DNA of 63,758 nt, filler included, from Kipferlia bialata (taxonomy: Eukaryota): NCBI GenBank assembly GCA_003568945.1. It is 5 parts of 5 records of this genome, joined end to end, with 100 filler letters (N's around TTAATTAATTAA, not from the genome) between each part and the next. Parts side by side here need not be neighbours in the genome. Positions count along the whole stretch, not along the records: positions 1 to 23,435 come from BDIP01000258.1; positions 23,536 to 46,967 come from BDIP01000259.1; positions 47,068 to 54,218 come from BDIP01000305.1; positions 54,319 to 59,109 come from BDIP01000309.1; positions 59,210 to 63,758 come from BDIP01000328.1. One strand, given 5' to 3'. The position numbers and the translations under genes are program-made. The notes below the pieces were generated by a model. That model saw only the letters and a list, made by a program, of their open reading frames with translations, had not been told where the DNA came from and made no database searches. Positions 8,194 to 61,977 of this stretch are shown here, in pieces; the first letter of the stretch is position 1, and each line of letters starts with the position of its first letter.

Positions 8194-8562
8194 TACTGCA
8201 TAAAGTGAATGGGTAGAGAGAGAGTCTTTTGACCCATGTTTTTTTGTTTCCAACACCCTTTCTCATCCTGATTCCGACCAAGCTTTACGCTCAATGCAAG
8301 TATATATTGTCACATGGCGGCTTAAAGCTGTCCCTTCCGAGAACAAATAGAAATACAACAGAAAACATCAAAACCCCTGTGACTCATCAGAGGTCATGCT
8401 TAGCCTAGCCTAAACCGATACCACCACATATCCCTAGTTGAGTCTCTTGTACAGTGTGTAGTAGTCGAGGGCTAGTCATCTACTAGAGTATACATATACC
8501 ACCACACTGATATATATATGCCTATGAGAGAGAGGCTACTCCCTCTCGCAAGTCTAGGCTCT

Positions 8563-11500
8563 CTAGTTGAGTCTCTTGTACAGTGCATAGTAGTCGAGGT
8601 CTGCATTGACAACGACGGGTGGGGTGTCGCCATTGAGCCTAGGGGGTAAGTATACTTCTGTATAGCCAAGAGTGGAAGTCACAACTTCCAATGAATACTC
8701 TCGTAGTGTATGTATATGTATATATATATACTCCTACCTGGCTATCTGGGCCTTGAGTGAGTCAATCTCGGCCTGTTTCTGCACATACACCCTCTGGGGC
8801 GGTGTCCAAAGACCACTGAACTGCATCCTGGCCAGTATGCCACACTGCACTGTGACCTGGTGTGACAAGGAACAGAGTAGGTAAGTGCACAATTGAGAGT
8901 GTTTGCCACACCTCCTTGTTGGCCTTGAATAGAGTGAGCTCCAGCTCTGGTGTTGTGCCCACATAGTCGATCTGGGCCTGGGTCTCCTCGGCCAGTCTCT
9001 TGAACCGAAGGTACCTCTTCCTAGGGTGTTACACACATACCTTGTTAAAGCATAGTATTGCCTAACATGTAGCTTATAATATACACCCACCTGTTTGATA
9101 TGTAGCTTATAGTATATACCCACCTGTTTGATATGAATGCGTCCCTCGATGCCTGTGCCACACCCACCGACATGTCAAGGCCACCACTGATGGGTGAGAC
9201 GCACATACTCATATATATGAATAATATAGCATTGACACATATATATGATATATCATCACGCGTGTTAATGTCAAGGCCACCCATGGGGGGTGAGACACGA
9301 AATAACAAGCATTGCAGGCAACGGTTATGAATTGTACTCTCACCCCCCCCTGTGCTGATAGTGTCGGTATCATAACAAATATTGTACTCAACACTCACCC
9401 TCTCCCCTGCACCTTGAGTAAGGACAGGGCACCCTCTGCCTCCTCCAGCTTGGCCTGGGAGTGGAAGGGGGGGTATATACATATAAACATGAATATATAT
9501 TGCGGAAGGGTGTATATAGACACAGATACGCCTCCGCCAGCTTGGCCTGGGGCAAGGGAGAGGATATATGCAATATCTGAATACATAAGATGCTGACTAC
9601 TAACTACTAAGCCTGGAATATCTGAAAACTCAGGAGTATAGTATATGGGTACCTTTAGCAGCTCTGACGATGCCCCGACCTCTCTGACCCTCCTCGCACC
9701 CTTCTTGGACCTGGAGGTGGGTGTATACACAAAGGCTATATACATATATACTGTGCCTGAGAAAATGCAATCGAAACAAGGCAGTGCGAATAATACAGCT
9801 ATGCCCACTCACTTAACCATTCGACACCGAGATTGAATACATATACATACAGAAGAGTATATTCAACCACATTCTTTTATAACACAGAGAGCTACTGGCA
9901 ATGGTGGGACAAAGACATACTCACTTAACCATCAGACACCGAGAACCGAACTCCAGAGAGCACCGGGTCTCCTAAGAGTCAGATAGGGAGAGTGAGATAG
10001 AATGATACTCTCTCCCTACATACTAATTAAGTACAAACCTCTGCATTGCGGCAGTGCTCATCCACGGCTATCAGGAATGCAGTCCTGGGGTCAGGATGGT
10101 GTGACACACCGGTTCACAACGTAGTTTCTACTAGTAGTACCAATCATAATAGACAATCAACCAAGGATGGGAATACCTCTCCACCTGCAACTCCCGCCCA
10201 GTCCTGTCTTCAACTGGGCATGTATATTATGTATATATATATACCCAATGTACCTGCTGTTCCCCCCTAGTCCATTCTTCAGCACCCGAGTGAGGGGACT
10301 GTCCCTGTATGGTATGAACTTGGAGTGCTTCCCAAGGGCCTGGACCACTCTGTTCAGCACAACTGAGGGGTCAGGGGCCATATGTATACATATATATATA
10401 AGGCACTAATATATATATATATATGTATATATGATATATTACGAATACTTAAGAGAGTCAAGTATACCGCATAGTGTAGCAATAGTACCTAGGGATGTGT
10501 TGATGCTCATGGCCTCCTTGGCCTTGACACCCGTGCTATTGGAGCGCTGGGGGTGAGATAAACAGTCATGGATTGTACATGGATACAGGTGATACCCACC
10601 TTGATCCTCTCACTGCCTGCCAGGTCGACAAAGAGGAACTTGGACGTCATGACCTGGCCTGGGGGGTGAGGAATGGTAACATAGTGAGGAATACCCTAGG
10701 TACATATATGAATATTGGGAGTGGGTGTACCACAGTACCTGCTGCGGTTGGCTGAGTGAGCACTGCAAACACCACACAGTGTGATCTAGAGGACCTGTGG
10801 TTCAGCGAGTGGCCCTTGGTGGAACGGGTGGCTGGGGTGAGGACACTAACAGGGACTGAAAGTATGGTACACCAATATGCTCTACTTCATACACACTATA
10901 TACAGTGTGAATGAATGCATATGTATATACATGCCACATATTACCTTCCACTGTCTTTGCCACCCTGATGACATCCTCTATCGACTGGACAGACACCTCC
11001 ATCTGAGGGGTCAGGGAGATATATATATAGAGAGAGAGGGGGGGGGGGGAGATGCCTAGAATACCTGCCCGCTGATCTCCAGCAGGGTGTCTGAGCTCTT
11101 CTGTCTCTTGGCCCTCTCTCTCTGCTTGGCCTTGGCCCTGCCCTCTCATGGTAAATAGGGGTGTAGGGGAGAGAAGAAAGCAGAGTACTCTAATACTGGA
11201 ATACAAGTACAGTAGTACTATATTATAGTGGACTGAGAAGAGATCTTTGAGCGCCTCCACATACCATCTGTGAGAGTCCCGAACTTGAACCTGTCACACG
11301 TGACTGGGCCACTGTCACCCCCAGAGATGCCTGACATTAGGTGAAAGAGATATGTGACAAGTCACATCAAACGGGTACAACATGCCATACCGACTGGGTT
11401 TCTCTTGTTGAGGAGGTCAAAGCAGCCCCCGAAGTATAACTCAACGGAGGAGAGAGTAAGGGTTGCGGGGGTGCCTAGTGATTAGATGTACATAGAGTAT

Positions 11501-13272
11501 AGTGTCTTGGCGGGGGTGCCTAGGGGTGAGAGAATAGTGCCACTACTAAGAAACTACTGGACCTCTGAAATACGTGAGTATGGAGCGTATTAAAAGAGTG
11601 AGAGTGACGTACCCTGTATTCTGTTCAGCACAGTCTGCATGGTACGGGGGAACATGCCCCACTCCTAGGGTGAGGGTATGAGAATTTCTACTAAGAAGTC
11701 AAAGTATGGGCTCCACATAAGAGTATATAGATAAGAGTATATACAAAGACATATTGAACAATGACAATATTGCGATGCCCTCACTCCAAATACAGAAGAC
11801 ATGAATATCACCGAAACTACAGTACATTGTTAGCACACAAATATCAATACCTGGTGCCCGTGTGTTTCGCCTAGGTACTGAGGGGGGCCAAACTGAGGGG
11901 TCAGGAAGGGGCTTGTTAGTACTCATACAACCCCAGTGCCTATACAATACACTACTGCACGTACTATGGTGTGTGTCTTGCCGCACCCTGTCTGGCCATA
12001 TGCCAGCACTGTGATGTCATACCCGCCCATGAAGCTGGGGTTAGAAGGTACTGACATAGCCCTTATATATGCACAGTACTAAAGATAAGTACTGCAATAA
12101 GAGTGTCATACAATGATGTCATACCCGCCCATGAAGCTGGGGTTAGAATATGATGCCACCGGCAACTACTCTTAATACATGATATAACAGAGATGTGCAG
12201 TAATAGGGGTGTCATACCCACCCATGAAGCTAGGGGTCAGGGTATATGTGACAATAACTATCGTACATAGATAGGGTATTACATGCACTGCACGAAATTA
12301 ACCAATAGCATTAATAATTATGGGATACATGCATAGTATTGGGGTATATAGACAGTATGTACCAACAGAGAATCGAGAGGTGGAAACAATTCGCGCAGTA
12401 TTTGAGTGCCCTATTGACGATTTACTACTACCACTGCACTTCACACATACCTATTGATTAGACTTGGTATACCGATAGAGTGAATGGGGATGTTGAAATA
12501 CACATAGGAGATATTTGAGAGCATATTTTCATTTATGTATCTACATACCTATCGATGAGACTGGGCATACCCAGTGACTCATACACTGCACCCTGGTCCT
12601 GGGGGGTGAGGAGAGAGATTAGAGAGGAAGAAGAAGAGAAAGTAAAGGCGGACGGAGAGAGAGATAGAGAGAGGGAGAGAACAAATGCCCACCTCCTCGG
12701 GTCCAAACACTGCCCCCCCTGGGAACCTGACATCGGTGGACTCGGCACTGAGGGGTGAGGGGTGATTGTTAAATGGGAAAGGGAAGGGGTGGCCCTAGAT
12801 AGACAGAGAGGACGACGTCTGAGTTAGGACTCAGTATTGGGGGGGGGGGGGATACAATGGAGGAGAGAGAGATAAAAGAATCAGTTGCGAGGTTGACTCA
12901 GTACTGGGGAGTGGGGGATAGAAATAGTGCCCTGAGATAGGTCTTAGAGGTGATCAGGATATAACTCAGACTCTCTCTTCGATGTTATGAGAGAGAGAGG
13001 CAGAGAGAGAGAAAGAGGACTGGAACAATAAGAACCTAAAGCTGGTGTACAAAGGAAGTAGGGGGGGGGGGGATACTTATATACTTATATAGTTGGTCTA
13101 TTCTTATAGGCTTGGCTGATCCAATACCAAATCCCACACACCGATGTGTATATGAATATACGATGTGTATATGAATACGACAATAGAACATGCACTGATA
13201 CCTGTCATCGAACTTGGGCTTGACCCTCACCGACACAGAGCATGCAAAGGACTTCTTGGGACGGGTGGGCAT
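8563..13272 (-). CDS. Kinesin motor protein (N-terminal motor, about 18 small exons, probably 5'-incomplete)
   Basis: Spliced exons give VSVRVKP, FMGGYDITVLAYGQTGCGKTHT (P-loop), LSSVELY, NHRSSRSH (switch I), FVDLAGSER (switch II), EAMSINTSL, IPYRDSPLTRVLKNGLGGNS, ETRCSLEFGSRC. Stop TAG at 8563-8565. The ATG at 13272 is directly preceded by a CCAG acceptor, so it may be an internal exon. Confidence 0.92.
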
Positions 13273-17448: not shown

Positions 17449-19881
17449 TCAGAGGTTCCGTCTGTGTGCAAGGATAGGACTGAATATACTGGTCACGCGG
17501 CCAGTCAACTGATCCCTGGGGGTGAGACAGTGGAACAGTACAGGGGTATAACCATCCATATCAATAACTACATATACCTAACCAGTAGGGCACCGTCACA
17601 ATTAACCACACATATATGTATAACCACATATACCTGACCAATATTGCCCCCCCGCTCTGCACATCGTCGGGTGACCCGGAGTACTTGGAGGACACTATGC
17701 CACTCTCCCTCTCCCTCTCTCTCCTCTGAGTCCTACCCCTGCTGTCCAAATCTCTCTCTCTCTCCCTCTCTCTCTCTCCCACCCCCCTACTGACACTGGG
17801 TGAGTACACAGGGGTGGACACACCAATACCCACGTCCATGCCTCTGCCATCCCCATCCCCCAGTGACCCGTCTCTCTCTCCCTCCCTCGACAGCCTGCTT
17901 CTCTCCCTCCCATACACCCTCTCCGTGGCTACATCTCCTGAAGGTATGAGTATCATGTGCAGATACATGTGATACATGAGCAACTGATGGTACTGGTACT
18001 GACGATACTGATACCTGGTTGGGGGCTGGGAACCGACAACGGCGACAGGTGCAGGCCCCTCTCGACCACCCTCTCTCTCTCCCTCTCCCTCTCTTCCTGG
18101 GATACTGGGTTCACACCCACTGCCCCATGTGTGTGTGTGTGTGTGTGTGTGGTGTGCCTATTGACCCTGGACACCATGCCAGGTGGGGGTAGGGGGGTGG
18201 AGTGGGTGCTGCGAGATAGGATGGGGGACGACGTCACTACCTGGGGGTGAGGGTAGGTATATACACGGGTACATATATACGTAGGCCGACAATCGGGATG
18301 TAACTGTTACACCATATAGATGTAGATATATAGAGAGTATGTCGATTACCCTAATATCTATACAAACTCATAACTGCTAGCGTCGGCAGAGCACGGAGTT
18401 AGATACAGACAGAGAGGGTCAGTGCTACGCTGCTACACCTACCCTTATACGCATGTTGCATATACTCCAATACTCTGGAACACAATGTCAGAGCACAGTG
18501 TACGACACATATACATATATATACATAATATACTATCCACATTACTATTAGTATTACACCAACCTCAGTGGGGTGCCTGTTGGTGTGTAGTTCACTCAGC
18601 AGCACCTCGCTCTGCCCAATCTGACATATGAGGGGGGGGGGGGGGTATGATATACGGTATATCCACTACTACATAGACCATACCTTGCTATACGTATATA
18701 TTACATATACATACACCATACCTCTTGCTGCACCCTAGCTATCTGGTGGTGTATCTCGTTCTGGCTCCTGACCTTGTCCCTCTTGAGCGACTGCAGATAC
18801 CGCACACCATCCCTGAGAGTCAGTAGTATGTGTATACATCATCATATCAGATACTGAGACTGAGACTGAGACTGAGACTGCAGATTCCGCACACCAACCC
18901 TGGGGGTAGGTGTGGATGTATGGTTGGTATGTATGGACAGAGTATAGATCCATCGTGTGAGAGGAAAGACCTCAGCTCTATACACGTATACGCATACATA
19001 TACGTACTTGAAGCAGTCCCGTGTGTACTTGGCATACATGTTCTGTAGGATCTGCAGGTCCCCCTCGATCTCTGACACCTGGGGTCAGGGGATAAGTATG
19101 AATGGGTATATATACTCATGTGTATATATGGTTCCACCCTGGGGTCAAAGGCACACTGATACTGTATACAGGCATATGAATACCCAACCACCATTGGTCA
19201 CATCAGTACCAGTATTCATTCCCATTCATTTATGTACATACAGTACCAGAACAGTATCACTTCCGGTACCGGCGCCAATATACACATATATCACCGTATA
19301 CCACTCTACATGTACCTCCCGTACCACCAGAATCAGCACACACTCATATACTTGATTGTCCCTCTTGCTCCAAAAAACGGAACCGGTACCGGTACCGATA
19401 CCAACAATCAATATGACTATACACCAGGTGACACAATACCTCAGCCTCCAGTACCACCAGGTGTGGCTCCAGCCGGATGGCCACGCTGGAGGTGGTCACT
19501 GGGGTGAGGTCCAGCAACATCACGGGATGACAACCACTTATAGATGAGATTGATCCCAGTCAGATCAAGAATGCGAATTTCAGTACACAGGAAGACATCT
19601 CCCTACGATGTACCCTACTAGTAACCTGCTGAGAGTATATGCAAACGTACAAGACGACATAACCCACAGGTCCCTTGTCTCCTTGGTAGACAGACCAACT
19701 GATCCAGCTAAGGCAGTAGGAAAACCCTTTCGAAATGCACATTTTTGTCTCTGCGATATTGGCCCACAGTGGGCCCCACTCACCCACTCCCCTTCACTTG
19801 TTGTGATACCTTCCAATAGGGTCTTGGAATTGGGAGGCCTGGATAGTGGGTTACCAGCTCGAGGCGGATGCGTGAGATCAT
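17449..19881 (-). CDS. Hypothetical protein, multi-exon, short coiled coil followed by low-complexity RE-rich tail; 5' end uncertain
   Basis: Exon peptides TTSSVAIRLEPHLVVLEAE / VSEIEGDLQILQNMYAK / DGVRYLQSLKRDKVRSQNEIHHQIARVQQE / IGQSEVLLSELH are bounded by typical donors and acceptors. Confidence 0.45.
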
Positions 19882-22900: not shown

Positions 22901-23361
22901 TTGTCCTGATACTGATACTGCCACTGGTACACTGACCCCAGCTTGTGTCTGCCACAGATGTCGATGTGTAGGGGGTGCTATTATATGCGACTATATATAC
23001 ATAGATATACACTGCCACTATCTCTGACCCCCAGCTTGTGTCTGCCACCGATGTCGACCAAGGGGGTCAGGGTGCAGGGTCGGGGCTGCCCGACTTCTCC
23101 CATCCAGATGGAGTGGTTATGGCTAGCAGGGAGAACAGTGAGAGAAGTGACACAGAGTCATCGTCCTCGGATGAGGAGGGGGGTGTCTATGTGTACAACC
23201 CAGACCGCAGTGCTAGTGTGGACAGTGAGAGTGGGAGTGGGAGTGGGTCAGAGACAGAGACAGAGGACAGTGAGAGTTATACATATGCCACGGATGGGAC
23301 CACCACTGACTCAGAGGAGACACAAGGAGGTAGGGGGGCAGATACAGGACTCATTGTGTGA
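19993..23361 (+). CDS. DHHC-type protein S-palmitoyltransferase (ZDHHC1/11-like), multi-exon; start uncertain
   Basis: [13 protein letters not shown] + [61 protein letters not shown] (TTxE-like motif); long Ser/acidic C-tail ending at 23361. Confidence 0.92.
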
Positions 23362-23535: not shown

Positions 23536-23960
23536 ATGAGGGCAGGGATCATGGCAAAGGACTGGTTCAGCAGGGGCTTCATGCCTGGGGGGTCAGAGAC
23601 AGAGAGAGAGAGAGAGACAGCTGCCTTCGTATATTGATATGAAGCTCTATATACATATGTTGTCTGCGTACCGGTGATGAGCTCCCACAGGATGGCCCCG
23701 TAGGACCAGACATCAGCCTTCTGGGTGAACCTGAGGAGGTGAGAACGGGAGAGAGATAGTGTGTGTGAGAGAGGAGGGGGAGGAGTGTACCCGTTGCTGA
23801 CGTGTATCCTTAAGGGTGTATAGAGAGAGAGAGTGAGAGAGTACCTGTAGCTCAGCTCGAACAGCTCAGGTGCACTGTAGATGGGTGTGCCTGCAAAGGT
23901 GGTGGAGGTGGAGGTCTTGAAGGCGTCGTGGGCCTACGGGTAAGAGGTCTATAGACACAC

Positions 23961-24003
<43 letters not shown>

Positions 24004-24389
24004 CTTGCTGAGGCCGAAGTCACTGATGCGGGACATGGTGCCCTCCTTGTTGAGCATGATGTTGGCAGGCTTGAGATCCCTACGCGGTAAGATGAGAGAG
24101 AGAAAGAGAGACAGACGGAATGTAAGTAAACCACACGATACTATACACACCTGTGCTCGACTGGGGGGTCACATGAGTAGAGGTACTCACATCCTCTGGC
24201 CACCTGGTAGGCCAGGGACAGCTTGCGGGACCAGGACATGGACCTAAGTGGTAAGAGAGAGGAATATATAGATACATATAGAGTATATATAGTATACACA
24301 CACACACATATATATATATATACGTGCGGGACCAGGACATGGACCTGAGAGGGTAAGAGAGAGAGGGAGAGATACAGATAGATAGACGG

Positions 24390-24434
<45 letters not shown>

Positions 24435-27400
24435 ACTCGTACCTTCCCTCCTTAGGGTTGTGGATAGCATCCTCAAGAGACCCTCCTCTCATGTAGAGCA
24501 TCATGAAGCCAACGCTGTCAGGGGAGACCACGAGGAACTGCACAGGCACAATGAACCTGGGGTTATACACGGAGAATAATCGTGTGGAAACACATCGCGT
24601 AGATACCTGCTGAACAGCTCGTGGCTCTGCTCGTACTCCTGAAGCACCCCTCTCAGCTGCTCCCTGCTCATGCTGTTTCTCTTGAAGAGCTTGACGGCAT
24701 AGTGGTCGGACCTCCACTTAACGAGCCACACCTGGGGTCAGCAGGCTTCCTATTACATATGTACAAACACCATACTGAGAGTGTGGTATATTAGTATACT
24801 ATTGTGAAGTACCTGTCCGAATGCGCCCTCTCCAAGGACCCTCTTCAGCTTGAGCTCCCTCATGGAGACGACGTCCTTCCTGCCCTTGAAGTTGGTGAAC
24901 TCACCCGTGAACGAGGAGAGGGCAAGGGCGGAGAGGACCTAGGGTGAGGGAGAGAGAGAGAGAGGACCCGAAGTGTGTGTGTGTATGAGAGAGATAGAGA
25001 GACTGAGTTACCTGCAGAGCGAGTGTGAGGTCAGCCACGCTCGAGTCCAGCCTCGACATGAGCTCCCCGAACTCTCTCTCAAACTTGGTCGACATGATGA
25101 ACTTCTTCATGTTGCTAGTGTCGATGAAGTAGGCCGTGACCTGTCACGTTAGAAGGGACAATTGACACAATACTACACGTTTGACACACCTCCTTATCAC
25201 AGTCCTGTAGGACCTCAGCAATGTGCTTCACTGACTCCAGACCGGGCTGCAGCTTCTCAGCAGCCATACTGGGATGAGCCAGAGAGAGAGAGAGGGAGAG
25301 GGAGAGAGAATCTGTACCTAGATGAGTCTGCCAGGGCGTGTGCCAGCTGCTCCAGAGGGGACTTGAGAGACACCATCCTCCTCAGGATGAGGGCAGCCTG
25401 GGGGGTGAGGGCATGTATGTACTCAGATACACATAGATACAGTAAGTGTACTAGATTCTTGTACTATACCTACTCCTGTGTCTCCTTCATGGTCCTCATC
25501 ATCTGTACTTCTCTCTCTCTCTGTCTCTCTCTCCAAATACCTTTATAGCCATCTATCTATCTATCTATCTATCCATACATACCTGCTCCTGTGTCTCCTT
25601 CATGGTCCTCATCATCTGGGCAGCCTTGGCCAGAATGGCAAAGCACACCCCAAACACCTCAACACCCCCAATGGAGCCTAGGGTGAGGGGGGTACAACAG
25701 TATAGGAGAGAATGTGTATGGAAGGAGTGATCTCCAAGGAACACGGCTGTATCAAACAGAGGAGATGTGAGGTAGGTTATAGGTAAAATAGAAACTACCA
25801 CTACGTACTGAGTGCATCCCCCAGTGTGGTCATGACGCTGCTGGATGAGCCCGAGGATGATAGACCGATGCTGCCTAGACTGGCACCCACACCCTGTACT
25901 GCTGAGGCGGCACCGTTGCTGATACCCTCGAGGGCTGCATTGAGTGGGGATGCGGCTAGCATGGCACCACCTGCCACTAGCACACCGTCTGGGACATTCT
26001 CTCCCACCATGGCAGCGGCCTGGGTATTAGAGAGAGAGAGAGAGAGAGAGAGAACCATGGCTGCGGCCTAGGTGTCAGAGGACAACGTAGAGGAAGTGAA
26101 AGAGAGAGAGAGGAAAAGAGAAATCTCTCAAGAAGTTTGAGAGAGAGAGATAGAGGGGGGGGGGGAGAGAGAGAGAGAGAGAAAGAGCACTTACATTGGC
26201 CACCATGATCTTGCCCTCGCTGAGGGGTGTGCCTGTCATCGAGAGTGGACTGTGGTAGTCATCCATGATAGAGGAGGCCTCTCCGTCACCAGGGGAGGGG
26301 GGGCGGAGACCACCGATACTTCCGGCACCTGGGTAAGCATCAGAGTCTATTTTGCTATCATAAGGCATGGTGTATGGTTATGACGTATGTTACCTGCTGT
26401 TGCCATGATCGGCTCTCCTCTCTTGTCTCCCTTCTTGCCCTTGTTCTTGGCCTTCCTCCTGCTGCAGCACCTGACACACGACACAAAGATACAGAGGAAT
26501 ACGAGACCCACGGCACCTGGGGGGTAAGAGTGGAAGGAAGGAGGAGAGAAAGGACGAGACAAAGCAATATCACCTGGGGTGATAAGAGATAGCCAGATGA
26601 AGAGGAAGAAAGAATTATAGAGAGAGAGAGGCACGTACCTGCGAGGATGTATGTCATGTATGCCTCGATGCCTGTGGCCACAGAAGTAGTAGTCACTGTG
26701 GCAAAGACCACCTCCCCAACAGAGTCGGTAGACCCATCCCATCCCACACTGACTGAGAGGGTGAGGTCACCAGCATCGTCTGGGGTGGTGATGGTGCCAG
26801 TGTACACGCCAGTGATGCCGTTGAGGGTGCATGCAGCGTACTCTGAGGAGGCAATGGTGGAAGAGTAACCCTCGGTGGTCTGGACGTTGATCCACACCTA
26901 GAGTGAGTCCGTCCGTGGCAAAGAGACAGAGATAGAGAGAGGGAGGGAGAGAGTGAGAGAGAGACACTACCAACCTCGGTGTCCGTCTCGTAGTTGATAT
27001 CCCCATTGGCACTCTTCAGAACAATAGAGATCTCGTAGTCTGTCTTGGTGTTGACCTGAGGTAAGAGGGAGAATCTATTTCGTCAAAATACTAACAGAAA
27101 TGAGTCCTGACAGGGACCGACGTATATATGCTGGTATATACAAACACACAAATATGAAATCATACATAAATACCAACACACCTGGGTCACTCCCTCTGGC
27201 AGTGACACGACAGTCTGGGCGGCATCTGGTCTGCCTGGTATTGTTAACAGGGTACATATACATGAGGTAGTGTAAGGATACCACATTGATATGTATTCAT
27301 GAGCATGGGTATACATATTTATATACCTGCGATCACCAGCACCGATGCGTTGATAGTCTGTGACACACTGTCGTCGTCTAGGTATGTGCACACCACGGTA

Positions 27401-28551
27401 CCAGACCCCACATCAGTAGGGGCGGTGAAGGTGACAGCATAGGAGCCTGGGGGGTAAGCATATACAGACAGAGAGAGAGAGACAGAGAGAGAGCGTACCA
27501 TCTGCGGTGTTGAAGGCGGGGCTCGACTGCCCTCCCCCTGTTCCGTACTCGATATACATGCTGTTGAGGTATGTCAGGTAGGGCTCACTGATGGTGGACC
27601 ACACAACCAGAGAGGCAGAGGTGGTCTCTCCCTGGAATGAGGGGCTAGAGAGAGAATAACGAAAAGGAAAGAGATAGAGATAGAGCGAGAGTATACCTGT
27701 CTGAACTCCGATGGCGACACCACCACGTATGAGGGTGCATCCAGGCTGAAGGAGACAAGAGTGTTGGGACCGACAGACGAAGTGGAGGCAATGATGAGAC
27801 CACCTAGAGTGAGAAGGGGTATATCAATGTGGAAGGAGAATGCTTGGATACATCTACATACCGTCCTAGTCCATTATTAGGACGCTTATATGATATAATA
27901 TACACAGACACTTCTGGTATACAACAGTTGTCACTATATGCACATACCGTCCTCGTCCATGGTGACCCCACTCCCAAACCCACTGTCTCCTGTGGACACT
28001 GTGGTCTCAGCCACAAAGATCATGTCCTCGATGCTCTCTGCAACAGAGGAGAAGACAGAGACAACTGGAGGGTGAGATATGTACAGTGTATGTATACATA
28101 CAGATAGGGAGAGAGAGAAATAGTGTCATCAGCCGCGTAGGAGAAGACAGACACAACTGGAGGGTGTGTGTGAGAGAGAGAGACATATGGAGAGAGAGAG
28201 AGAGAGGTTTCATATGCCACCCCCACCTGCTGCAGCTGCGTCTGTGACTGCAAGTACACTGTTCTTGACAAAGAGGCCTGGGGGTAAGGGGGTAGAGACA
28301 CATAGTACATAAAGAGAGAAAGAGAGAGAGAGAGCAAGTATACTGTTGTCTAGACAAAGAGACCTGGGGGTGAGAGGGGGTGTATTCACACACAAATATA
28401 CACATACATACGTAGATAGAGGGAGGAAGGGGGGGGAGAGAGAGATGTGTTGCACTCACTGAGGTTGAATGTGCTGCCCTTGGCCACAGAGGCTATGCCG
28501 GAGGAGGTGTCAGAGCCGGTGGTCACAGACTGGATCACAGACCAGCCTAGG

Positions 28552-28589
<38 letters not shown>

Positions 28590-29343
28590 GTGTTGGGTGG
28601 GTTGGAATACCTGCGTCTCCGCGTCCGTACACGTTGAACACTGAGCTACCACTGGCGGTGTCAGCTACAAAGGCCACGGAGGCGGCATCAGACTGGGAGA
28701 TGGCAGCTGAGCCACCGCCTGAGGGTTACTGTGTATAGAGAGAGAGAATGGAAATATCTACCACCGGGTTAGTGGGTAGAGAGCGAGAGAGAGAGCCTAC
28801 ATACCGATGTCGAGGGTAGCCTCCAGAGACCAAGTGAGGAGGGAGGTACTGCGCCTAGTGTCAGAGAGGGTATGTATACACATATAACGAATAGTAGGAG
28901 TACTAGCATAGATATAGTACCTGAATATGTATGTCTTGTTGCCCTCGCACCCCACGACGGCAGAGTCTGTGGATATGTCCACCACAGTGCCAAAGTGGAG
29001 GTCCACCTCTGATGTGGTGGGGGTGTATGTCTTGTCGAGGGTGCATGCACCGGTGACTGACTCGCACTCATAGAGAGAGACACTGCCCACATTGGACTCG
29101 GCATCAGGGGCACCCACAATGAGACGGCTGGTATAAGGGGGTAGAGGGAGAGAGAGAGAGAGAGTATGTGTGGATGTGCTGCTAAAATATATAGATATGT
29201 ATATACCTTACACCCTCTGAGTCGGTCTCTGTGCAGGACAGGGCCTTTCCGAATGCAGTCATGTATGTGCCGTAGAGTGTGTTCTTGTGCTGCCAGTCGG
29301 TGGAGTCGTCATCGGGCCTGGAGATGACATAGACCTAATGATC

Positions 29344-29374
<31 letters not shown>

Positions 29375-29398
29375 ATAGACCTGGGAAAGGGGGAAACC

Positions 29399-29442
<44 letters not shown>

Positions 29443-31112: not shown

Positions 31113-31149
<37 letters not shown>

Positions 31150-31933
31150 GATGTGAACTGCCAACCTGTAGAGAGCCACCACGTTCTTGTCCCCTGAGTA
31201 TATATATATGTGTGTGTGTGTATACATACAGAGAAAACAGAGATCTTGTCATACTGGCTGAGGTGTGTGTTCCCACCTGTACAGTGCAATCACGTTCTTG
31301 TCCCCTGAGTATGTGACAGTGCACATGTAGGAGACAGGGCTGGAGTTGCTGTCATAGGTACAGTCATTGTAGTTCGTCTGGAGGTGAGAGGGGTCCACAA
31401 CCACCATGTTCTCACGTGTTATTCTGGATATAGAGGGTATGGGGACGAACCTCATCGTCCACGGACACCTCGAGCTCCTCCCCCCCTACTGCGTTGCCGT
31501 ACTGGTCTGTGACATACACAGTGAGGGTGGCCTGCTCTCCAGAGACCAGGGCAGAGGTGGAGGAGGAGAGAGAGATGGCAGAGGCAGCACCTGAGGGGTG
31601 AGGAGGAGAGTGACTGAATACTCAAACTATTGGAGAGAGAGAGAGAGAGAGAGGTATACGCACCAGGTGTAACTGTGAATGTGTACTCGAGGTCTGTGGA
31701 CTCATCGAAGTCGGCATCCTCGTATGTGTAGGAGGCCACAAGTTGGTAGTCCTGTGCCTAGGGGGTGAGAACGAGAGATAGAGAGAGAAGGGTAAAAAGA
31801 ATGGAGAGAGGGAGGATGGGAGGAGGAAGAGAGAGAGAAAGAGAGACTTACCACTGTGGGGCATGTCATCTCGTATCCAAAGACACCAGAGGTACCGGTC
31901 TCAGTGTAGGCACCCTCATCCTGTTGTAAGGGG

Positions 31934-31973
<40 letters not shown>

Positions 31974-35316: not shown

Positions 35317-35342
35317 CGTCTCTCTTTGACCCTCACCCCCAG

Positions 35343-36520: not shown

Positions 36521-36562
<42 letters not shown>

Positions 36563-41226: not shown

Positions 41227-41261
41227 AGAGTGAGACTCTGTGAAGAGGGTAGGGAGAGGAT

Positions 41262-41293
<32 letters not shown>

Positions 41294-41369
41294 AAAAGAC
41301 CCGGTGTGGCACCCAGTGTCTTTCCTTGTACCTAGTCAGCCATCGAACTCCTAGTGCCCCTCTTCCCTG

Positions 41370-43068
41370 AGCACACACTGTACTATGCCCCCGCCAAGGT
41401 AATCTCTCTCTCTCTCTCTGTCTCCCTCTCCCCCCCTCTCCCCCTCTTTCCCCCTCTCTCTCCATCTTGCTGTCAAATGAAGATATGGGACAACAGGCAG
41501 ACTCTTTCCTTATGATATCTTTCCCTGCCTCTCTCTCCCGCTTCCTCTCTCTGTCATTACCAATGATATCCCGATCTTCTCATCCCATTTCCCCTCTTGT
41601 TCTCACTCTCTCAGGCAGATGTCAGAGACCCATTGGTATATCCCCCTCTCTTCTCTTAGTCTCACTCCCACACTCTTCCTCCAATCTCTGCACATATATT
41701 CTCTCTTGTTCTCATTATCAGGCAGATGTCAGAGAGTGCCAACCCAAGACACTTCAGGTGATGCCTCTCGCCTATGTCTCTCTTAGCATCATGGGTGTCT
41801 ATTCCTATACCCTTATTGTCATGTAGGGGGTGACAGCTCTCTCTCTCTCTCTCCCCCATGTTTATACAGCATACATATAGATATATCCTCACCTCTAGAC
41901 AGGAGGTAGCAACCCATCTCTCTCTCTATCTATACATATCCAAGTAACTATAACAATACCCTCACCTCTAGACAGGAGGTGTCAGCACTCAAGAGAGATC
42001 AGCTCTTCTCTCGCTGTCTTCCTATTTCTCTCTCTATACACCTCCAATATATGTATTAATATATATATGTATCCTCACCTCTAGACAGGAGGTATCAGCA
42101 CTGAAGAGAGAGCTGGCCGCACTCAAGACAGAGTCCATGGCATCGGACAGCAGGTATATTAATACATGAGGTGTATGTGTATGTATAGATGTGTATACGT
42201 ATATAATACATTGGTGTATAATGATACTTTTTTGCATGTAGTGGCAGCACTCAAGACAGAGTCCGTGGCATCGGACAGCAGGTATATACCTTGAATAATT
42301 AGTAGAGTGTCAATAGTGTATATGTATTGTGAACAATACACATTGTATATGTACTATATGTGTATATTAGGCCACACCACTTCTTCTGCTCTCACTCCAG
42401 GCACCGCCACATGACTGTGTCACTCAACCATCAGGTATGGAGACACATTCTGTATACGTATGTTCATTTGCAACATATATCTAAATATATATACTATTTG
42501 TGTGTTTTGTGTATATATTATGTATACTTGCCCCTCTTCACCCACGATTCTAACCCGCCAGCTCCAGGCACTTCAGAAGCAGAACCATGACTTCCAGGAG
42601 GTATGAGACAACGCCCTCTATTTCTGTCAGAGACAACACCTTGTACTCTGTCACTACCTGCGTGTGTTCCTCATATACGTCCAATACCCAGTTTCCAGTC
42701 TGCTAATGTATTTCTTCAGATATATCTCGCGACAGCTTCCTCTACACCCGTATTCCAGACTGCCGAGCACCTCCAGTTTGTCATTGCCAATCTCTCTCTC
42801 TCCTTCCCTCTACACCCTTAAATCAGACTGCTGAGCCCCTCCAGTCTGTCATTGCCAACACCTCTCTCTCTCTCTCTCTCTCTCTACACTCTTATATCAG
42901 ACTGCTGAGCACCTCCAGTCTGTCATTGCCAACCTGAGGTCAAGGCTCAGGGAGACTCGGTACGACTCGTGTTTACAAACTAGAAACATTCTGTCTCTCT
43001 CACAGCCACTCTGCCAACGCCCTTATATCAGCAACGTGGCTGCTGCTGCCAAGGCCAGCTCTCTCTCT

Positions 43069-43106
<38 letters not shown>

Positions 43107-43150
43107 GTCTACACCCTTATTTCAGCAACGTGGCTGCTGCTGCCAAGGCC

Positions 43151-43188
<38 letters not shown>

Positions 43189-46100: not shown

Positions 46101-46408
46101 TCATATATGTGAGGACATTGATATATACTATTGTTATTGCTCACTACAAGGAGACATGCCGCTGTGGCAGCTGACCTGGCCTCCAGGGCAGCAGCTCTCA
46201 ACATCACACATCTACAGGCACCTGAGCCAGTACCCACAAAGGTATACACACGTGTTCTGTATTGATAAGTCAATTCATTGAGGCTTCTATCACATCTCCA
46301 TGTGGTCACCTATACATTACATGTACTGACCTCTAGGCACACCGTGACAGGATGGCCAGACTAGCATCCAGGGCAGCTGGTATCGGTGCAGTGGACAGGG
46401 AGCAGTGA
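41370..46408 (+). CDS. Coiled-coil protein built of about 20 micro-exons; 5' end missing
   Basis: Exon peptides QEVSALKRELAALKTE / LQALQKQNHDFQE / TAEHLQSVIANL / ALAQECSSMSTECSQLRAALK / VAQAETHRTRQEMQMERAK / ARSDHRKLVRTLNMREDKIAELKDQ / AHRDRMARLASRAAGIGAVDREQ* (TGA 46406-46408). Confidence 0.65.
43020..43326 (+). repeat. Four stacked copies of acceptor + exon start (ccttatwtcag|CAACGTGGCTGCTGCTGCCAAGGCCAG)
   Basis: Copies at ~43021, ~43115, ~43196 and ~43288; the first three run into (CT)n, and only the last continues as coding sequence. Confidence 0.9.
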
Positions 46409-46967
46409 GGCATACACTACTGATCCTGGATACACAGCAATAGACTCATTTCTATATTCGTCTCTGTCACATGGGGTATATTGAGAAATTTCTCTACTTT
46501 TGTGTTGGTATCGGCGCAGTGGACAGGGAGCAGTGAGGCATACATCAGACTAGTTTTGTTGCCCCTTATACTATACTGCAATGAAGCGATGAAGTACCAA
46601 TCGTCGTCATATTACTCTGGTGTTTGTATCGGTGCAGTGGACAGGGAGCAGTGAGGCATATACTACTGGTTCTGCCACAGCAATAGACTCATTTCTATGT
46701 TCCTTTTCGTCACAAATAGTCATTGTGGCTTTCGAGGTTCTTACTCTGATGTTGGCGCCACTATCAAAAGACAAACTGAGCCTCAGTCTGAGGTTGTGTT
46801 GAAATACGCTAGGTCTCTTTCAATTTTCTCTGTATTCACTGAAATTCAGTGAAATCCAGTCTGAATACTAATCAGCTGATTGCGTTAGTTGCCGTGTAAA
46901 CCGTGTCGGGAACATACATGGCAACTGCCATTCGTTTCATTCGCACCATTCGTAAGCGAATTCCATT

Positions 46968-50375: not shown

Positions 50376-53300
50376 CCACCTGGGTCGAATGCCGCTGCCA
50401 GCCCCCAGAGGTCCATGGCCGTCTCGTCCTGCTCTGTCTCTGTCTCGGCAGAGGGGTCGGTGTAGTTGGCGTCGATGTACAGAGAGAAGGTGTCGCTGGG
50501 GGTCAGGGGTATCCAGCTACTACTAATACAAACACTATGCATACATTCATACATATATACATCCACCACCCCACCCCACCTGTCTGTCAATGGCAGCCCT
50601 GTGTCCATGAGGCCATCCAGCAGGGCACAGGCCGTGATGGTGATGACCTAGGGGGTCAGGGTATACAGGTGTTTAGTAGTATATGTATCTACAAACATAT
50701 ATCATACACATCTAGCACACCCCACCTGCTCTGCGTAGTCTGCCACGTCCTCAGCTGCCACCCCCACCAAGTGGTACGCACCCTCGTCTGCCGTGCCCTC
50801 ATCAGGCTGTGCGTTGGTGGCTGTCAGTGCATACAGCACCGTATCTGCCTCATAGTCCACCCCCATGGCATCGTATATGGCCACCTTGTCAGCGTCTCCC
50901 ACCGTCTCCACAGCAGTGAACTCCTCTCCATCACTCTCTCTCCACCAGTTGTCGGTGTCGTCTGTCAACTCACCAAAGACAGACGCAGCTAGGGAGTCGG
51001 AGACATACGGCCTGGGGGTCAGGGTACATGTATATGTGTGGGTAACTATACATAGAGTCCCCCTCCATACACCCTTCTATCAGTGCTTTAATACCTGTAT
51101 ATGAGGACCCTTCCTGGACATGCACTCATGGAGTAACACACATCACCATCCGTGGCAGCCTGGGGGTGAGGGGGGGGGACGACAAATCAGTCTGGATTCT
51201 GGACTCCTGATGATATACATACACATACACTATGATAAGTAATCATACGAAAAAATATTACACCCACCTGCTCTGTGACGAGTAGTTCATCCTCTTCGGC
51301 ACATTCAATGCCCAGACCAGGCACATAGCCCTTGCCTGGGGATAAGACAGGAAGTGGTGTAAGACACAAGCATGAGCCCACATATACACCCTTGCACATA
51401 TACATGAATGCCCCACCTGCTGTGACTACACAGCCTGTTGGCATCTCTATGAGTCTGATAGCAGAGACTGAGGTGGAGTCATCTGGGGCCAGGGACCAGC
51501 CGCCTGACAGTGAGGGGGGATACTTCTACTATATATATATATATATATACATGAGTGGGGTATATTCTAATACCTGTTGTAGGCAGCCTGCCCTTAGCCC
51601 CCCAGCACCCACTGCTGTCCGATGACCACAGACTGGACCCGTCGAGTATGGCATACTCCCTGGCACCCACTATCACTGTGGAGGTGGGGGTGGCCATGGC
51701 AGAGCACTCCACGCCTGGGGTTGACACAGAGGGGGGACACATGGACAGTGTAGGTATAAACATAAACACGTCCTCCCCACCTATCTCCTCCTCGAAATCC
51801 TACATATACACAAATATACAAACACACACACATCCACCCTGTACCTGCCTCCTCCTCGACGTCCTCCAGGCCGTCCTCCCCCTCCCCTGCGTTGTCTGCC
51901 TCGTCGTCACCCCCAGTCAGCACGTCTTCCACACAGTCTGCTAGGAGGACATCCGTGTAGCCCATCTGCTCACACAGCAGGGTGGCAGCTGGGGTGGGGG
52001 GGGGGGGACCTGATACACACATATATATATATATATACATATCTATATCTCATACACACCCACCTGCCTCCTCTTCCGGGTCCTCGTCCGGGTCGTCCCC
52101 CTCATCATCAACGACCACCAGTTCCTCGGGGTCATAGCACCTGGGGTGAGGGACAGGGGGAGGAAATATATACATAGACAACCACATGCACCCATCCCCC
52201 CCACCTGTCGAGCTCTCTGTCTGCCCAGAAGATGGAGCAGTAGGGCTCACCGTCTGCTGCATAGTAGGAGCCCAGCTCACCTGGGGGTGAGGCACACATC
52301 AACTACTAATATATATACACACGTATTGAGAACACCCAATCTGCACCTGCGTATCTGTTGCTGGGTAGGGATGCCTCTGTCCCATCTGGGAGGGTGAGGT
52401 CTGAGTGGTCATCGCTGAACCTGCCGCACAGCCCATACATGCCATACACATCCTCCTGGAGGGACACATACACCTGCCAGTAGGACTGGAAGGACGACCT
52501 GAGGTGGGGGGGGGAGAGAGAGAGGGCATGTGCAAGTCCACCCACCTCCTGAGCTGTAGGGTGAGTGTGGCACCCCCGAATGTGAACACGTCATCCTGGG
52601 GCCCTAGGGAGTACTCGACGTAGGTACTCCCCTTCCACCACTTGGACACCTGGGGGGTGGGGGAGGGGATGGATATACATTTGTGTTTGCATGGATATGT
52701 GAACAGGAGAGGATAAAGACCGGGTGGGATTGTTTGTAACTACACAACCCATGCATACCTTTGTGAGTGCGAGTGTACTACCACATGTAGTACCCTCCAG
52801 TAGGTCAGGGAAGTCTGCGCTGCTCTTTCCCACCCCGTCCTCATTCACTATGACAGTGGGGTCACCCCAGTAGGTGGACGGGGCGTGGACCTGGGGTCAG
52901 GCAGGGTGGGTATATATATAGTCTGCTGTACTGCAGAGGGATATACACACCCAATACACTTGCAGATATATATATAATACTGGGGGGGGGGGGGGTGATG
53001 TATATACATAGAGTACACACACCTCGATTGTGCAGTCGTCCCCGTTGTCCTGGAACACCCTCATGGCAGCCTGTGCGTTGACGGTGGGGCTGCCAGAGTA
53101 GTTCTTCCACTTCGACATGTACGTCTGGATGGCCATGCCTGGGTGAGGGGGAGGTATATATTGAGAGAGAGAGTGTGTGTGTATGTATATCTCACATATC
53201 CATACCGTAGCTGGTGTATATGTTGTCGTCGGGGTCGATGTACCCCATCATGTGGGGGCCAGCACCGTAGTAGTTGTATCTCAGGCCCTTGTACGAACGG

Positions 53301-53852
53301 TAGTGGGGGTCGCCTGAGGGTCAGATATGCACATATAATTCATAGTGTAGGGATAAACTCACTATACCCCACCTGTTGCCTTACACACTGCTGTCCGGGG
53401 GCTGCTCTTGACCAGCAGGACCCTGGCATACCCATGCCCAGCACAGTACGCATACTTGTTGTGGTGGGGGTCCCACCGCTTGACAGCATGGTGCCTGGGG
53501 TGGGGTGGGGTATATACATATAGACCTACATATGCATAGATAGAGAGAGAGACACACACCCTGACAGCATGGTGCCTGGGGTGGGTGATATATTATGTAT
53601 GTGTAAACAATCATATACACACAACAGGACAAACACACATCGACCCTACACCGCCCCACCTGCTGCCTGTGCACTTAGAGCTTGAGTACGGCACCCTGCC
53701 CCCACCCCCACTGCCACACAGACACTGGCCTGGGGTGAGAGGGACACGGGTGTATATATATATATATATGAATGCACAAGTACCATGTCACACAGACACT
53801 GGCCTGGGGTAAGGGGGGCAGAGGTATATACCCACATATACATAAGTGGTGA

Positions 53853-53889
<37 letters not shown>

Positions 53890-54157
53890 AGTACCATGTC
53901 ACACAGACACTGGCCTGGGGTAAGGGGGACACGGGTAGAGACATGCATATACATATATGCACAAGTACTATGTGCACACAGAAAATGGCCAGTGGAAGGG
54001 GGTGATGAATGAATATGCCAAGTGATACACATGCATCCACTAGGGTATGTTGGCCCAATGTACCTCCGAATGCGTACTGCTGGGCACACGCCACAAAGGA
54101 CGGGTGGTCCTCATCGGCTAGTACCCACCCGTCTGGCAGGTAGAAGGGGCGGGACCT
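47673..54157 (-). CDS. Type I membrane protein with two von Willebrand factor type D (VWD)-like domains, about 28 exons, 5'-incomplete
   Basis: GDPHYRSYKGLRYNY (~53300)...MYGLCGRFSDDHSD (~52420)...TLLCEQMG..ADCVEDV. Second copy SGDPHLQTLMGHYYDY (~49260)...GLCTGC..TTLCEATG..SCIYDAM. TM WYYIGGATLTAIGVLVGGAYYL, then a basic tail; stop at 47673. Confidence 0.78.
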
Positions 54158-59209: not shown

Positions 59210-59256
59210 GGGGGGGGCGAGTGGGGGGGGGGGGGGGGGGTGCAGCATGACCCGTA

Positions 59257-59798: not shown

Positions 59799-61233
59799 TT
59801 ACGCCCTATCATCTGCCACGTCCATCACGGGACCCCCGCTGACTGTGCTGTCGGAGGGGGGGAGGGGAAGGTCACCTGGGGTCAGTTATGCTGCATATGC
59901 CTGCTGTACTAGAGGAGACATGCATAGATATCTAAGAGAGTGGGTAATGGCAGCCATATGTGTGTATAAGGTACCCTACCTGGTGCAGATAGGGTGGTGC
60001 GCACTGTCTCGGACTCGCCAGCTCTACCTGGCGGTGAGGGGTATAGAAAGTGAAAGACATGACACAGTGAGAATGAGATACTCATTCAGAGGAGACACTC
60101 CCTCACCTGTGAGGTAGTACCCGTCAGTACTGACTGGAGAGGGGGAGGGAGGGGGAGGGGTCTCGTCACCACGGATCTCGTGTCTGAGTTAGATGTGTGA
60201 TATTATTGTCGAGCACTGTTGATATCCCCTCACGCTTCTCACCTGCACTTCCATACTATGACCCCCAAGTATATGTACAACAGTTATGCATAATGGTACC
60301 GAATGTTTTCCTACTCCCCTCTCACCTGTACTTCCAGGCTATGAACACCACCAGCACCCCCAACAGCACAGCGGCAACGATGCCCAGAATGGGGAACAGA
60401 ATGGCAATCCAGTTCTGGAGGTGAGTGAGGGTAGGGTGCAAGGTCATTAAATGGATGTAAAGAGCTAGTAGAGACCCCGGTTGATAGAATGCATATACAT
60501 ATATATACATATACACTCACATCTGCCAGGTCGAACTCTGCCATGATGAACCCCCAGAGTAGTGCAATGATCATGGGGAAGGCAGTGGCCCTGACCACGT
60601 TGGGGATCAGAATGACAGGCCTGGGGTGAAAGGTGAATATCTATAGCATATATATATATACATATATTTACAATTGTACCTGATCATGGGCAGTGTCTCA
60701 CTGACCGTTGCCTTGAGTTCAGACACAGCCTCGGTGGCAAGAAGATACCCAAACAGGGCATTGATGGTGCCTGGGGTTGGACACACAACATATATTCACA
60801 GTATACATATATATATATATATACATTATACATATCTATATGTATGTGAGTAAGTCAGATACCCAAACAGGGCATTGATGGTGCCTGGGGTATAATATTG
60901 CATATACACCGTATATATATATATATATATATATACTACTCCTCCACATACATATATGTCAGTCAGTCAGATACCCAAACAGGGCATTGATGGTGCCTGG
61001 GGGTTAGATATCAAATCAAGAGTGAATCACAGAGTCAACTGATAGACAGTCATCATCAGAGAATAAGTGTACATACACACACGTACAGTTGTATGCCGTG
61101 ACTGATATCACACAGACACACACACACATATATATATATACATATACTTCTATATATAGCAATGAGTACGTACAGTTGTATGCCGTGACTGATGCTATGA
61201 CTATGTTGAGGATGGGCACGGCATAGGCCTGGG

Positions 61234-61272
<39 letters not shown>

Positions 61273-61977
61273 GGCACGGCATAAGCCTGGAGGGAGGAAG
61301 GGAGAGAGAGAGAGAGAGAGAGAGAGGATGGGCACGGCATAGGCCTGGAGGGAGGAAGAGAGAGAGAGAGAGAGAGAGAGGAGAAAGAGATATGGGGGAG
61401 AGAGGGAGAGAGAGACTTGAGGATGGGACGGGAACGGCATGGGCCTGGGGTGAGAGAGAGGGGAGGGGGGAGAGATAGAGGGGGGAAAGGGAGTATGGAG
61501 AGACTACTAACCTACGGTATAGGAGATGGATGTATGACGTAGCGAGAGAGAGAGAGAGGGTCGTACCACCAGCCCCTCGTTGGTCTCTCCTGTGAAGAAG
61601 AACTCTCTCAGACCCACATAGCCTAAAAGATGAGAGAATGATAGAGGCTACAACAGATATTTAGAGTACATAGTGTATATGGATGCTGGTGTCTGTGATA
61701 ATGTAGCGACAATATACTATACCTAGCACAAACAGAGCAGCTGCGTTGAGCAGGTTGTCGATCCTGGAGATGAGGGCAATCTCCTGGGGTTAGAAGAGAT
61801 GGAGATCGTCCTATATGAATACACATAATTCATACTGCCCGCACCTGGTGCTCTGCCCTCTCAACTTGGTAGAAGGCAAAAGCTTAGATATACATATACT
61901 GATACATGTACAAGATGAGACAATCTCCATACCTGGTGCTCTGCCCTCTCAATCTTCCATCTCGCACTCTCACTCAT
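59799..61977 (-). CDS. Hypothetical multi-pass membrane protein (about 4 TM, about 10 exons); start uncertain
   Basis: Phase-compatible exons MSESARWKIERAEHQ / EIALISRIDNLLNAAALFVLG / YVGLREFF / AYAVPILNIVIASVTAYN / TINALFGYLLA / PVILIP..IIALLWGFIMA / NWIAILFPILGIVAAVLLGVLVVFIAWKY / ..DVADDRA*. Confidence 0.65.

What the first reader, a model, noticed from the sequence alone, without database searches (positions are those of the whole stretch)
8434..61955. Pervasive 'exon-edge echoes': splice site + exon edge copied into adjacent introns with strict polarity
SEEN: about 30 families of 15-50-nt direct repeats, 2-4 copies each, ~60-130 nt apart, in at least 8 unrelated genes on four of the five contigs. 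Approximate examples: 9806/9919, 11463/11508, 12014/12114/12209, 18790/18878, 22932/23024, 24224/24325, 25468/25579, 28048/28140, 30640 x4, 32234/32320, 32473/32585, 35771/35876, 42755/42822/42897, 43021 x4, 44138/44238, 44362/44420/44532, 45117/45240/45376, 45780/45899, 53715/53790/53900, 60745/60857/60968, 61208 x4, 61843/61930. Nearly every unit is an acceptor plus the exon's first bases, or the exon's last bases plus the donor. The complete exon is the last copy for acceptors and the first copy for donors. Intron sequence between copies is mostly unalignable. INFERENCE: a systematic process acting at coding/non-coding boundaries, such as out-of-register recombination or repair between divergent alleles. 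It would leave near-perfect decoy splice sites that the spliceosome must skip or remove recursively, and could be a route to intron expansion or gain. I know of no description at this density but cannot search the literature.
Basis: partly seen in the sequence, partly recalled or inferred. Interest (0 to 1): 0.88.

Follow-up and report, generated by a model that had tools for sequence, protein, structure and literature searches.

The report
Exon-edge echoes fill a protist's introns
In the single-celled flagellate Kipferlia bialata, about one intron in four in this stretch carries a short extra copy of the neighbouring exon's edge and splice signal; the messenger RNA skips the copies wherever it could be checked, and their mostly silent differences suggest they were likely pasted in from other working versions of the same gene during misaligned DNA repair.

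Summary
In 10 curated Kipferlia bialata gene models, 41 of 161 introns hold 57 copies of the adjacent exon edge plus splice site (period median 92 nt), with no far-edge or mid-exon copies. DNA-run contigs cross six echo families at single-copy depth, so those are not assembly artefacts; one copy elsewhere (44420) is. RNA contig offsets fit, to the base, a model in which all echoes in one gene region are spliced out. The polarity is a logical consequence of duplicating one junction, and I found no sign of recursive splicing or intron gain. The closest known thing is the amphioxus 'mirage'; this scan has noted mirages many times in marine invertebrates. New here: a protist; the density (35 of 46 introns of 140 nt or more carry echoes); an echo ending at a stop codon; and echo-versus-exon differences that are mostly synonymous (pN/pS 0.28, CI 0.17-0.47), even among changes private to one echo (16 of 24). 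That points to copying from diverged working alleles, not neutral decay. The mechanism is inferred, since no second allele was seen. Verdict: new variant of a known kind.

The parts
8434..8599 (-). Kinesin gene: last 12 codons including the stop codon, echoed 129 nt downstream; similarity ends at the stop
9067..9296 (-). Kinesin: 33-nt-unit donor echo (echo donor 9090) and acceptor echo (9282 vs real 9186)
9438..9551 (-). Kinesin acceptor echo (9546 vs real 9454)
9807..9944 (-). Kinesin donor echo
10185..10282 (-). Diverged kinesin donor echo; its translation still resembles the real motor-domain segment
11463..11531 (-). Kinesin acceptor echo (11519 vs real 11474)
12012..12571 (-). Kinesin 514-nt intron with two acceptor echoes (12136, 12229; real 12034) and a donor echo (12450)
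18789..18902 (-). Acceptor echo (18899 vs real 18812) in an unnamed gene
22936..23057 (+). DHHC palmitoyltransferase KIPB_001743: acceptor echo 22942, real acceptor 23035
24224..28378 (-). Large membrane kinase gene, lower part: echoes at 24344, 25469, 26067, 27861, 28156, 28363
29321..29382 (-). Acceptor echo 29380, skipped in RNA contig 9
30637..30916 (-). Four-copy acceptor array (real 30686; echoes 30770, 30833, 30910). All four read the same 13 amino acids and differ only at silent sites over them; RNA matches the last copy in transcript order
31164..33490 (-). Echoes 31165, 32144, 32236, 32475, 33478, all inside introns of RNA contig 10; two pairs are crossed by DNA contig 3
35771..35896 (+). 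HAT-repeat gene KIPB_001745: acceptor echo 35775, real acceptor 35880; crossed by DNA contig 6
41611..46100 (+). KIPB_001747: echoes in 12 of 16 introns, including arrays at 42759/42827, 43032/43126/43208 and 45120/45243; DNA contig 8 crosses the first three families
46378..46702 (+). Three copies of the annotated end of KIPB_001747 (stop codon, or possibly a donor); flanks 1 and 3 align, flank 2 is unrelated (A-B-A')
51780..53973 (-). Gene on contig 3: donor echo 51780; acceptor echoes 53575, 53803, 53914
60242..61952 (-). Gene on contig 5: echoes 60242, 60884, 60996, 61086, 61286, 61344, 61444, 61844

Best explanation
These are genomic, mirage-type head-to-tail duplications of one exon edge with its splice site, skipped in the mRNA where tested, and likely made or refreshed by out-of-register homologous repair between diverged alleles of the same gene. 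SHOWN: the copies are in the DNA reads; the outermost splice sites are used in the tested gene; echoes differ from the working exon mainly at silent sites while the intron side diverges much faster; similarity can stop at a stop codon. INFERRED: allelic exons stay similar while microsatellite-rich introns do not. A break within about 50 nt of an exon edge is repaired from the other allele; synthesis runs into that allele's different intron; the 10-50 nt of exon homology is too short to re-anneal; and the ends are joined by microhomology, often at a (CT)n tract. The result is [edge + most of an intron + edge]. Unequal exchange then multiplies the units. Selection keeps only single-junction duplications that are skipped, which forces the polarity. 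CONTEXT FROM PAPERS: metamonads lack NHEJ, and the fornicates examined lost Rad51A and keep Dmc1 paralogs (PMC8516963); human DMC1 tolerates mismatches (PMC7809202).
For: Synonymous bias: 45 synonymous vs 40 non-synonymous unique differences, pN/pS 0.28, family bootstrap CI 0.17-0.47. Simple duplication with a neutral echo predicts >=0.5. With the empirical mutation spectrum, 42/75 synonymous vs a bound of 0.42, p=0.011. Changes private to one echo: 16/24 synonymous (13/19 after trimming ends) vs 0.25 expected, p<1e-4; vs the strict bound p=0.019. The four 30640-array copies encode the same 13 residues. Exon side 93.5% identical over 1406 nt; intron side 82/68/65/55% in 10-nt bins vs 68/55/56/51% for random introns. 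A-B-A' flanks at 46378-46702, scores 27.5 vs 6 and 7. Stop-codon echo. Dinucleotide repeat at the far end in 23/57 vs 23% background, p=0.0025. No near-identical paralog appeared for the three retrieved proteins.
Against: No second allele was observed. One search lists no sequence differences in 27800-43440, although contigs drop variants. No close relative was found in two metagenome scans. Against the strict bound the test weakens to p=0.05-0.08 at transition bias 4-6. Without the large kinase gene the ratio is 0.34 and private changes are 8 of 14. Four echoes carry nonsense changes, so neutral decay also occurs. Copies within several arrays end at the same junction and some units are 92-98% identical throughout, which is ordinary tandem expansion. 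The intron-side divergence looks larger than pS (0.17-0.19) alone would give. Seven of ten gene models rest wholly or partly on my reading-frame curation.
Confidence: 0.5

Rival explanations
1. Classic mirage: same-allele slippage or unequal sister exchange duplicates about 90 nt across a junction. The copy decays neutrally, microsatellite turnover erases the intron part quickly, and the silent differences arose in the working exon.
For: 23/53 flanks keep detectable homology and some units are nearly identical. Shared junctions within arrays. Microsatellites at far ends. A unit near 92 nt cannot fit inside a typical 80-nt intron, so junction-spanning copies would be the main survivable class (inference).
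Against: Predicts pN/pS >=0.5 (observed CI 0.17-0.47) and about 25% synonymous private changes (observed 16/24). 19/57 echoes are perfect on the exon side, some beside unrelated flanks, e.g. 44142 at z=-1.9. A-B-A' flanks.
Confidence: 0.3
2. Same repair mechanism, but the donor was a paralog or a lost homeolog from an old hybrid or genome doubling, not a segregating allele.
For: Gives the same silent-site bias. The large kinase gene has internal repeats.
Against: P0123, P0124 and P0125 are single-member clusters and no near-identical paralog was returned (weak, word-limited searches). Echoes occur in 8 unrelated genes.
Confidence: 0.08
3. The echoes are, or were, translated micro-exons or alternative splice sites under coding constraint.
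For: Silent-site bias; 10/57 echo sites would give an open in-frame insertion.
Against: 47/57 would frameshift or stop; four carry nonsense codons; RNA offsets fit complete skipping.
Confidence: 0.05
4. A splicing-coupled process (R-loops or reverse splicing) targets splice sites specifically and leaves recursive splice points.
For: Near-exclusive location at junctions.
Against: Stop-codon echo with no donor nearby; no AG|GT enrichment; echoes carry intron-side splice signals, not exon-exon joins.
Confidence: 0.05
5. Assembly or amplification artefact: concatenated alleles.
For: One copy (44420) is a gap-overlap artefact. Run X1 may be the source of this DNA.
Against: X1 contigs cross six families with 0 mismatches and 0 gaps at depth 409-507, vs 518 for an echo-free control. 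The longest exact repeat inside them is 21-25 nt, below the 31-letter word size, so a graph collapse cannot make them.
Confidence: 0.02

Closest known systems
Amphioxus 'mirages' (Adh3, globins BflGb6/BflGb9, troponin C, PGBD5): PMC3087553 passages of section 16; PMC3902484 one passage; Canestro 2002 not held
   Same: Tandem duplicates spanning an exon-intron boundary, at both 5' and 3' edges, with cryptic AG/GT, and normal splicing. Unit lengths overlap (10-160 bp there, 33-170 here).
   Different: There: a handful of loci, units 81-100% identical (BflGb6), mechanism stated as unclear. Here: a protist with roughly 80-nt introns, 41/161 introns affected, mostly two copies, exon part conserved while the intron part is near background, silent-site bias, and an echo at a stop codon.
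Human F7 IVS7 37-bp VNTR (PMC1557585, abstract)
   Same: Repeated donor pseudo-sites that are functional but silent; the most upstream donor is used.
   Different: One homogeneous VNTR, donor side only. Here 40 of 57 copies are acceptors, where the last site is used.
[quoted passage not shown]
   Same: Local duplication involving splice motifs.
   Different: That duplicates exon-internal AG|GY and creates a new intron. Here existing junctions are duplicated and existing introns lengthen; no new intron was seen.
[quoted passage not shown]
   Same: A repair-made insertion with flanking repeats is proposed.
   Different: Here the insertions sit at existing junctions, the repeat is 9-50 nt of exon, and the insert is often homologous to the local intron.

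Membership tests
Mirage minisatellites | Tandem copies span an exon-intron boundary | tested here: met
   57 copies in 45 families; controls near zero
Mirage minisatellites | Copies retain cryptic splice signals | tested here: met
   AG 38/40, GT 16/17; scores close to real sites. Detection partly favoured intact sites.
Mirage minisatellites | Normal mRNA splicing is unaffected | tested here: met
   RNA contig offsets fit complete skipping in one gene; minor isoforms are not visible in contigs
Mirage minisatellites | Whole repeat unit is homologous (minisatellite-like, about 81-100%) | tested here: inconclusive
   True for some arrays, but 30 of 53 flanks are no better than random introns; intron side 55-82% vs 51-68% background
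Mirage minisatellites | Copy-number instability between haplotypes or cells | not testable with these tools
   One sample, contigs only
Recursive splicing (ratchet points) | Internal AG|GT sites that regenerate a donor | tested here: not met
   No enrichment of GT exon starts or AG exon ends; intermediates not testable
Intron gain by tandem duplication | The duplicate yields a new intron between two used sites | tested here: not met
   Echo sites unused in the RNA-tested region and in three database proteins
Introner-like mobile introns (features recalled) | Inserted sequences similar to each other across loci | not tested
   No cross-locus spacer family stood out by eye or, but no all-against-all spacer test was run

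The most novel reading that the evidence does not exclude
In a lineage without NHEJ or Rad51, mismatch-tolerant repair from the homologous chromosome routinely pastes pieces of other working alleles at every border between conserved coding and divergent non-coding DNA. Kipferlia's long introns would then be a fossil record of past alleles, and the same allele-divergence mechanism would explain mirages in highly polymorphic animals.
Probability: 0.33. Interest if true: 0.82.

Novelty: new variant of a known kind. Interest (0 to 1): 0.62.

Why it matters
The origin of mirages is described as unclear (PMC3087553). This genome offers what may be tens of thousands of cases (extrapolating 25% to the 124,912 introns reported for the species in PMC5874029), and a codon-level signature that makes the mechanism directly testable. 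In this window echoes account for most long introns, so they are a main route of intron growth in the intron-rich relative of Giardia. They also give natural pairs of near-identical competing splice sites for asking how a reduced spliceosome (87 of 174 proteins, PMC6679479) ignores a strong upstream acceptor.

Tried and rejected
No whole genome was held, so nothing is genome-wide. The ab initio gene finder over-split, treating echoes as micro-exons, and was replaced by curation. Generic repeat finder was swamped by microsatellites. Two metagenome scans found no close relative: 0 loci for P0123; 37 loci at 33-59% identity for Nop2, unused. The representative-protein search never ran. No holder is on record as RNA; X2 is treated as RNA because its contigs skip introns. 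My 'echo splice sites beat random mutation' test is not used as evidence: it ignores indels, and detection favours intact sites. Hand-picked held-out echoes (8 synonymous, 8 non-synonymous, two of the latter from a row in the wrong frame) are illustrative only. Start-codon echoes: 0 of 10; coding-end echoes: 2 of 12 (one end probe and one start probe were off register). Contig depth was not used to rank expression. Nonsense-mediated decay status in Kipferlia: nothing relevant in the 10 papers listed. Reads could be laid only on 27800-43440, so echoes elsewhere, including most of KIPB_001747, lack read support.
Full report
ORGANISM AND GENES. The window is five contigs joined by N linkers. Exon queries retrieved proteins named Kipferlia bialata: KIPB_001745 (HAT repeats), KIPB_001743 (DHHC) and KIPB_001747. 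Each maps exactly to the window as a spliced gene with GT-AG introns (551/551, 560/560 and 314/314 residues). I curated seven more models by open frame and splice motif, including a 22-exon kinesin with intact motor motifs (Pfam PF00225 on two exons) and a 53-exon membrane kinase. Total: 161 introns; those without echoes have a median length of 80 nt. The three database proteins are gene predictions and my own models were built to keep frames open, so neither independently proves skipping. The RNA test below does, for one gene.

IS IT THERE, AND BEYOND CHANCE? Yes. At a score reached by 0.17% of 4074 null comparisons, 18/161 donor edges and 24/161 acceptor edges recur in the adjacent intron. 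Far edges (0/98, 0/99), mid-exon probes (0/45, 0/48) and reverse complements (1/161, 0/161) do not. An anchored scan gave 58 copies; I dropped 44420, a 53-nt exact duplicate beside an NN gap. That leaves 57 copies (40 acceptor, 17 donor) in 45 families and 41/161 introns, unevenly spread from 12/16 in KIPB_001747 to 0/5 and 0/3. Echoes occupy 35/46 introns of 140 nt or more, 5/29 of 100-139 nt and 1/86 under 100 nt.

IS IT GENOMIC? Only 27800-43440 was laid. Contigs of DNA run X1 match with no mismatch or gap across 32124-32706, 35752-36514 and 41463-42853, at depths 507, 494 and 409; the echo-free control 36572-41249 has 518. They cross six echo families, and their longest exact internal repeats are 21-25 nt. 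That is shorter than the 31-letter words, so a collapsed graph cannot have produced them. X1 may be the window's own source and depth is one figure per contig, so this excludes assembly error but is not an independent sample.

WHICH SITE IS USED? X2 contigs skip introns and behave as RNA. Contig 10 (4379 nt) places 34353 at position 2571. Summing 15 exons with every echo left in its intron predicts an end at exactly 4379, at donor 30955. Contig 9 then fits all its anchors, including 951 at 29127, and the joined frame is open for 978 codons. Of 15,680 alternative combinations for contig 10, 6 give the same length: the all-skip model and five that need compensating micro-exons (frames not checked). 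Contig 9 matches the last copy of the four-copy array with no differences. So the first donor and the last acceptor are used. Contigs show only the main path, and 47/57 echo sites would frameshift or stop if used, so decay of mis-spliced RNA could contribute. The two contigs break exactly at the donor before the four-copy array, a weak hint of retention there.

POLARITY AND RECURSION. Any head-to-tail duplication across one junction leaves the whole exon on the last acceptor or the first donor, so the polarity is forced (logic). Echoed exons are not enriched for GT starts (4/28 vs 36/133) or AG ends (12/17 vs 105/144), so there is no sign of ratchet points.

THE INFORMATIVE ANOMALY. The exon side is 93.5% identical over 1406 nt. 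The intron side is 82, 68, 65 and 55% in successive 10-nt bins, against 68, 55, 56 and 51% for random introns; 23/53 flanks beat random at p<0.05. A dead copy should mutate without regard to codons. Instead 47 of 85 differences are at third positions and 45 are synonymous (pN/pS 0.28), CI 0.17-0.47, or 0.15-0.43 after trimming ends. If the echo is neutral and only the working exon is constrained, the ratio cannot fall below 0.5. That bound is rejected at p=0.011 with the empirical spectrum on trimmed data, but only at p=0.017-0.079 under transition biases of 2-6 on untrimmed data. Changes private to one echo in multi-copy families are 16/24 synonymous vs 25% expected; five of them come from one array, whose four copies all encode the same 13 residues. 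Excluding that gene gives a ratio of 0.34 and 8/14 private changes synonymous. Four echoes have nonsense changes, so they also decay. The kinesin's last 12 codons are echoed with similarity ending at the stop and no donor nearby. At 46378-46702 the first and third flanks align while the middle one is unrelated.

MECHANISM. The reading that fits these together is copying from diverged working alleles: repair from the homologue starts in conserved exon, runs into a different intron, fails to re-anneal on 50 nt or less of homology, and is closed by microhomology joining, often at dinucleotide tracts (23/57 far ends vs 23% background). Arrays then grow by unequal exchange. These steps are inferred. 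PMC8516963 (section 8 read) reports no NHEJ in metamonads and loss of Rad51A with two Dmc1 paralogs in the fornicates examined; PMC7809202 (abstract) describes human DMC1 as mismatch tolerant; PMC5874029 (parts 1-2 of 6 and passages) suggests diploidy from k-mers. Against: no second allele appears, and no relative was found. Simple same-allele duplication with fast intron turnover stays at about 0.3 and clearly describes the youngest arrays.

WHAT IS KNOWN. Amphioxus mirages match the anatomy and the lack of effect on mRNA (PMC3087553 passages; PMC3902484 passage). The human F7 VNTR covers the donor side (PMC1557585 abstract). Also seen: PMC2891723 (passages), 10.1101/051292 (part 1 of 2), PMC6679479 (passages), PMC13041844 (one passage). 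The original mirage paper was not held, and no supplements were read. Ten literature searches showed no report of this in Kipferlia or another protist, nor of a synonymous bias in mirages; the library lacks most subscription papers. Earlier notes of this scan list 76 findings with these words in at least 11 genomes; the eight shown were invertebrates (sea urchin, annelid, abalone, clam, one unnamed), all unchecked, and there were none for this genome. That amphioxus and such marine invertebrates are highly polymorphic is recalled, not tested; it would fit the allele model.

VERDICT. Real, genomic where tested, spliced out where tested, and a new variant of a known kind. Interest 0.62: the kind is known and recurs in this scan, but the density, the lineage and a testable signature of origin are new.

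Noticed in passing
window 35280-35345: The minus-strand kinase gene abuts the plus-strand HAT-repeat gene with no promoter space. A DNA contig ends at 35280, and RNA contig 10 holds 2570 nt upstream of 34353 while the window offers only about 600 nt of exon there: likely a misjoin or rearrangement breakpoint.
   Followed up: partly
   Followed up: yes
window 30687-30954: RNA contigs 9 and 10 break exactly at the donor of the intron holding the four-copy array, hinting at intron retention.
   Followed up: partly
window 37419-40615: One RNA contig (record 11) runs from the HAT-repeat gene through the opposite-strand gene at 38235-40734 with that gene's 39938-40029 intron removed: overlapping 3' ends of convergent genes.
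   Followed up: no
window 28363, 27861, 25469, 51780: All four nonsense changes in echoes create TAG, from AAG, GAG or CAG.
   Followed up: no
window 21463-21667, 12748-13201, 19079-19439: Long introns below the echo threshold contain extra acceptor-like or very short edge copies (seen by eye), probably older decayed echoes.
   Followed up: no
window 23537-35330: Large single-pass membrane protein with repeated extracellular domains and a C-terminal kinase, at least 53 exons; not retrieved from the protein database, where the search was limited to 2000 aa.
   Followed up: partly
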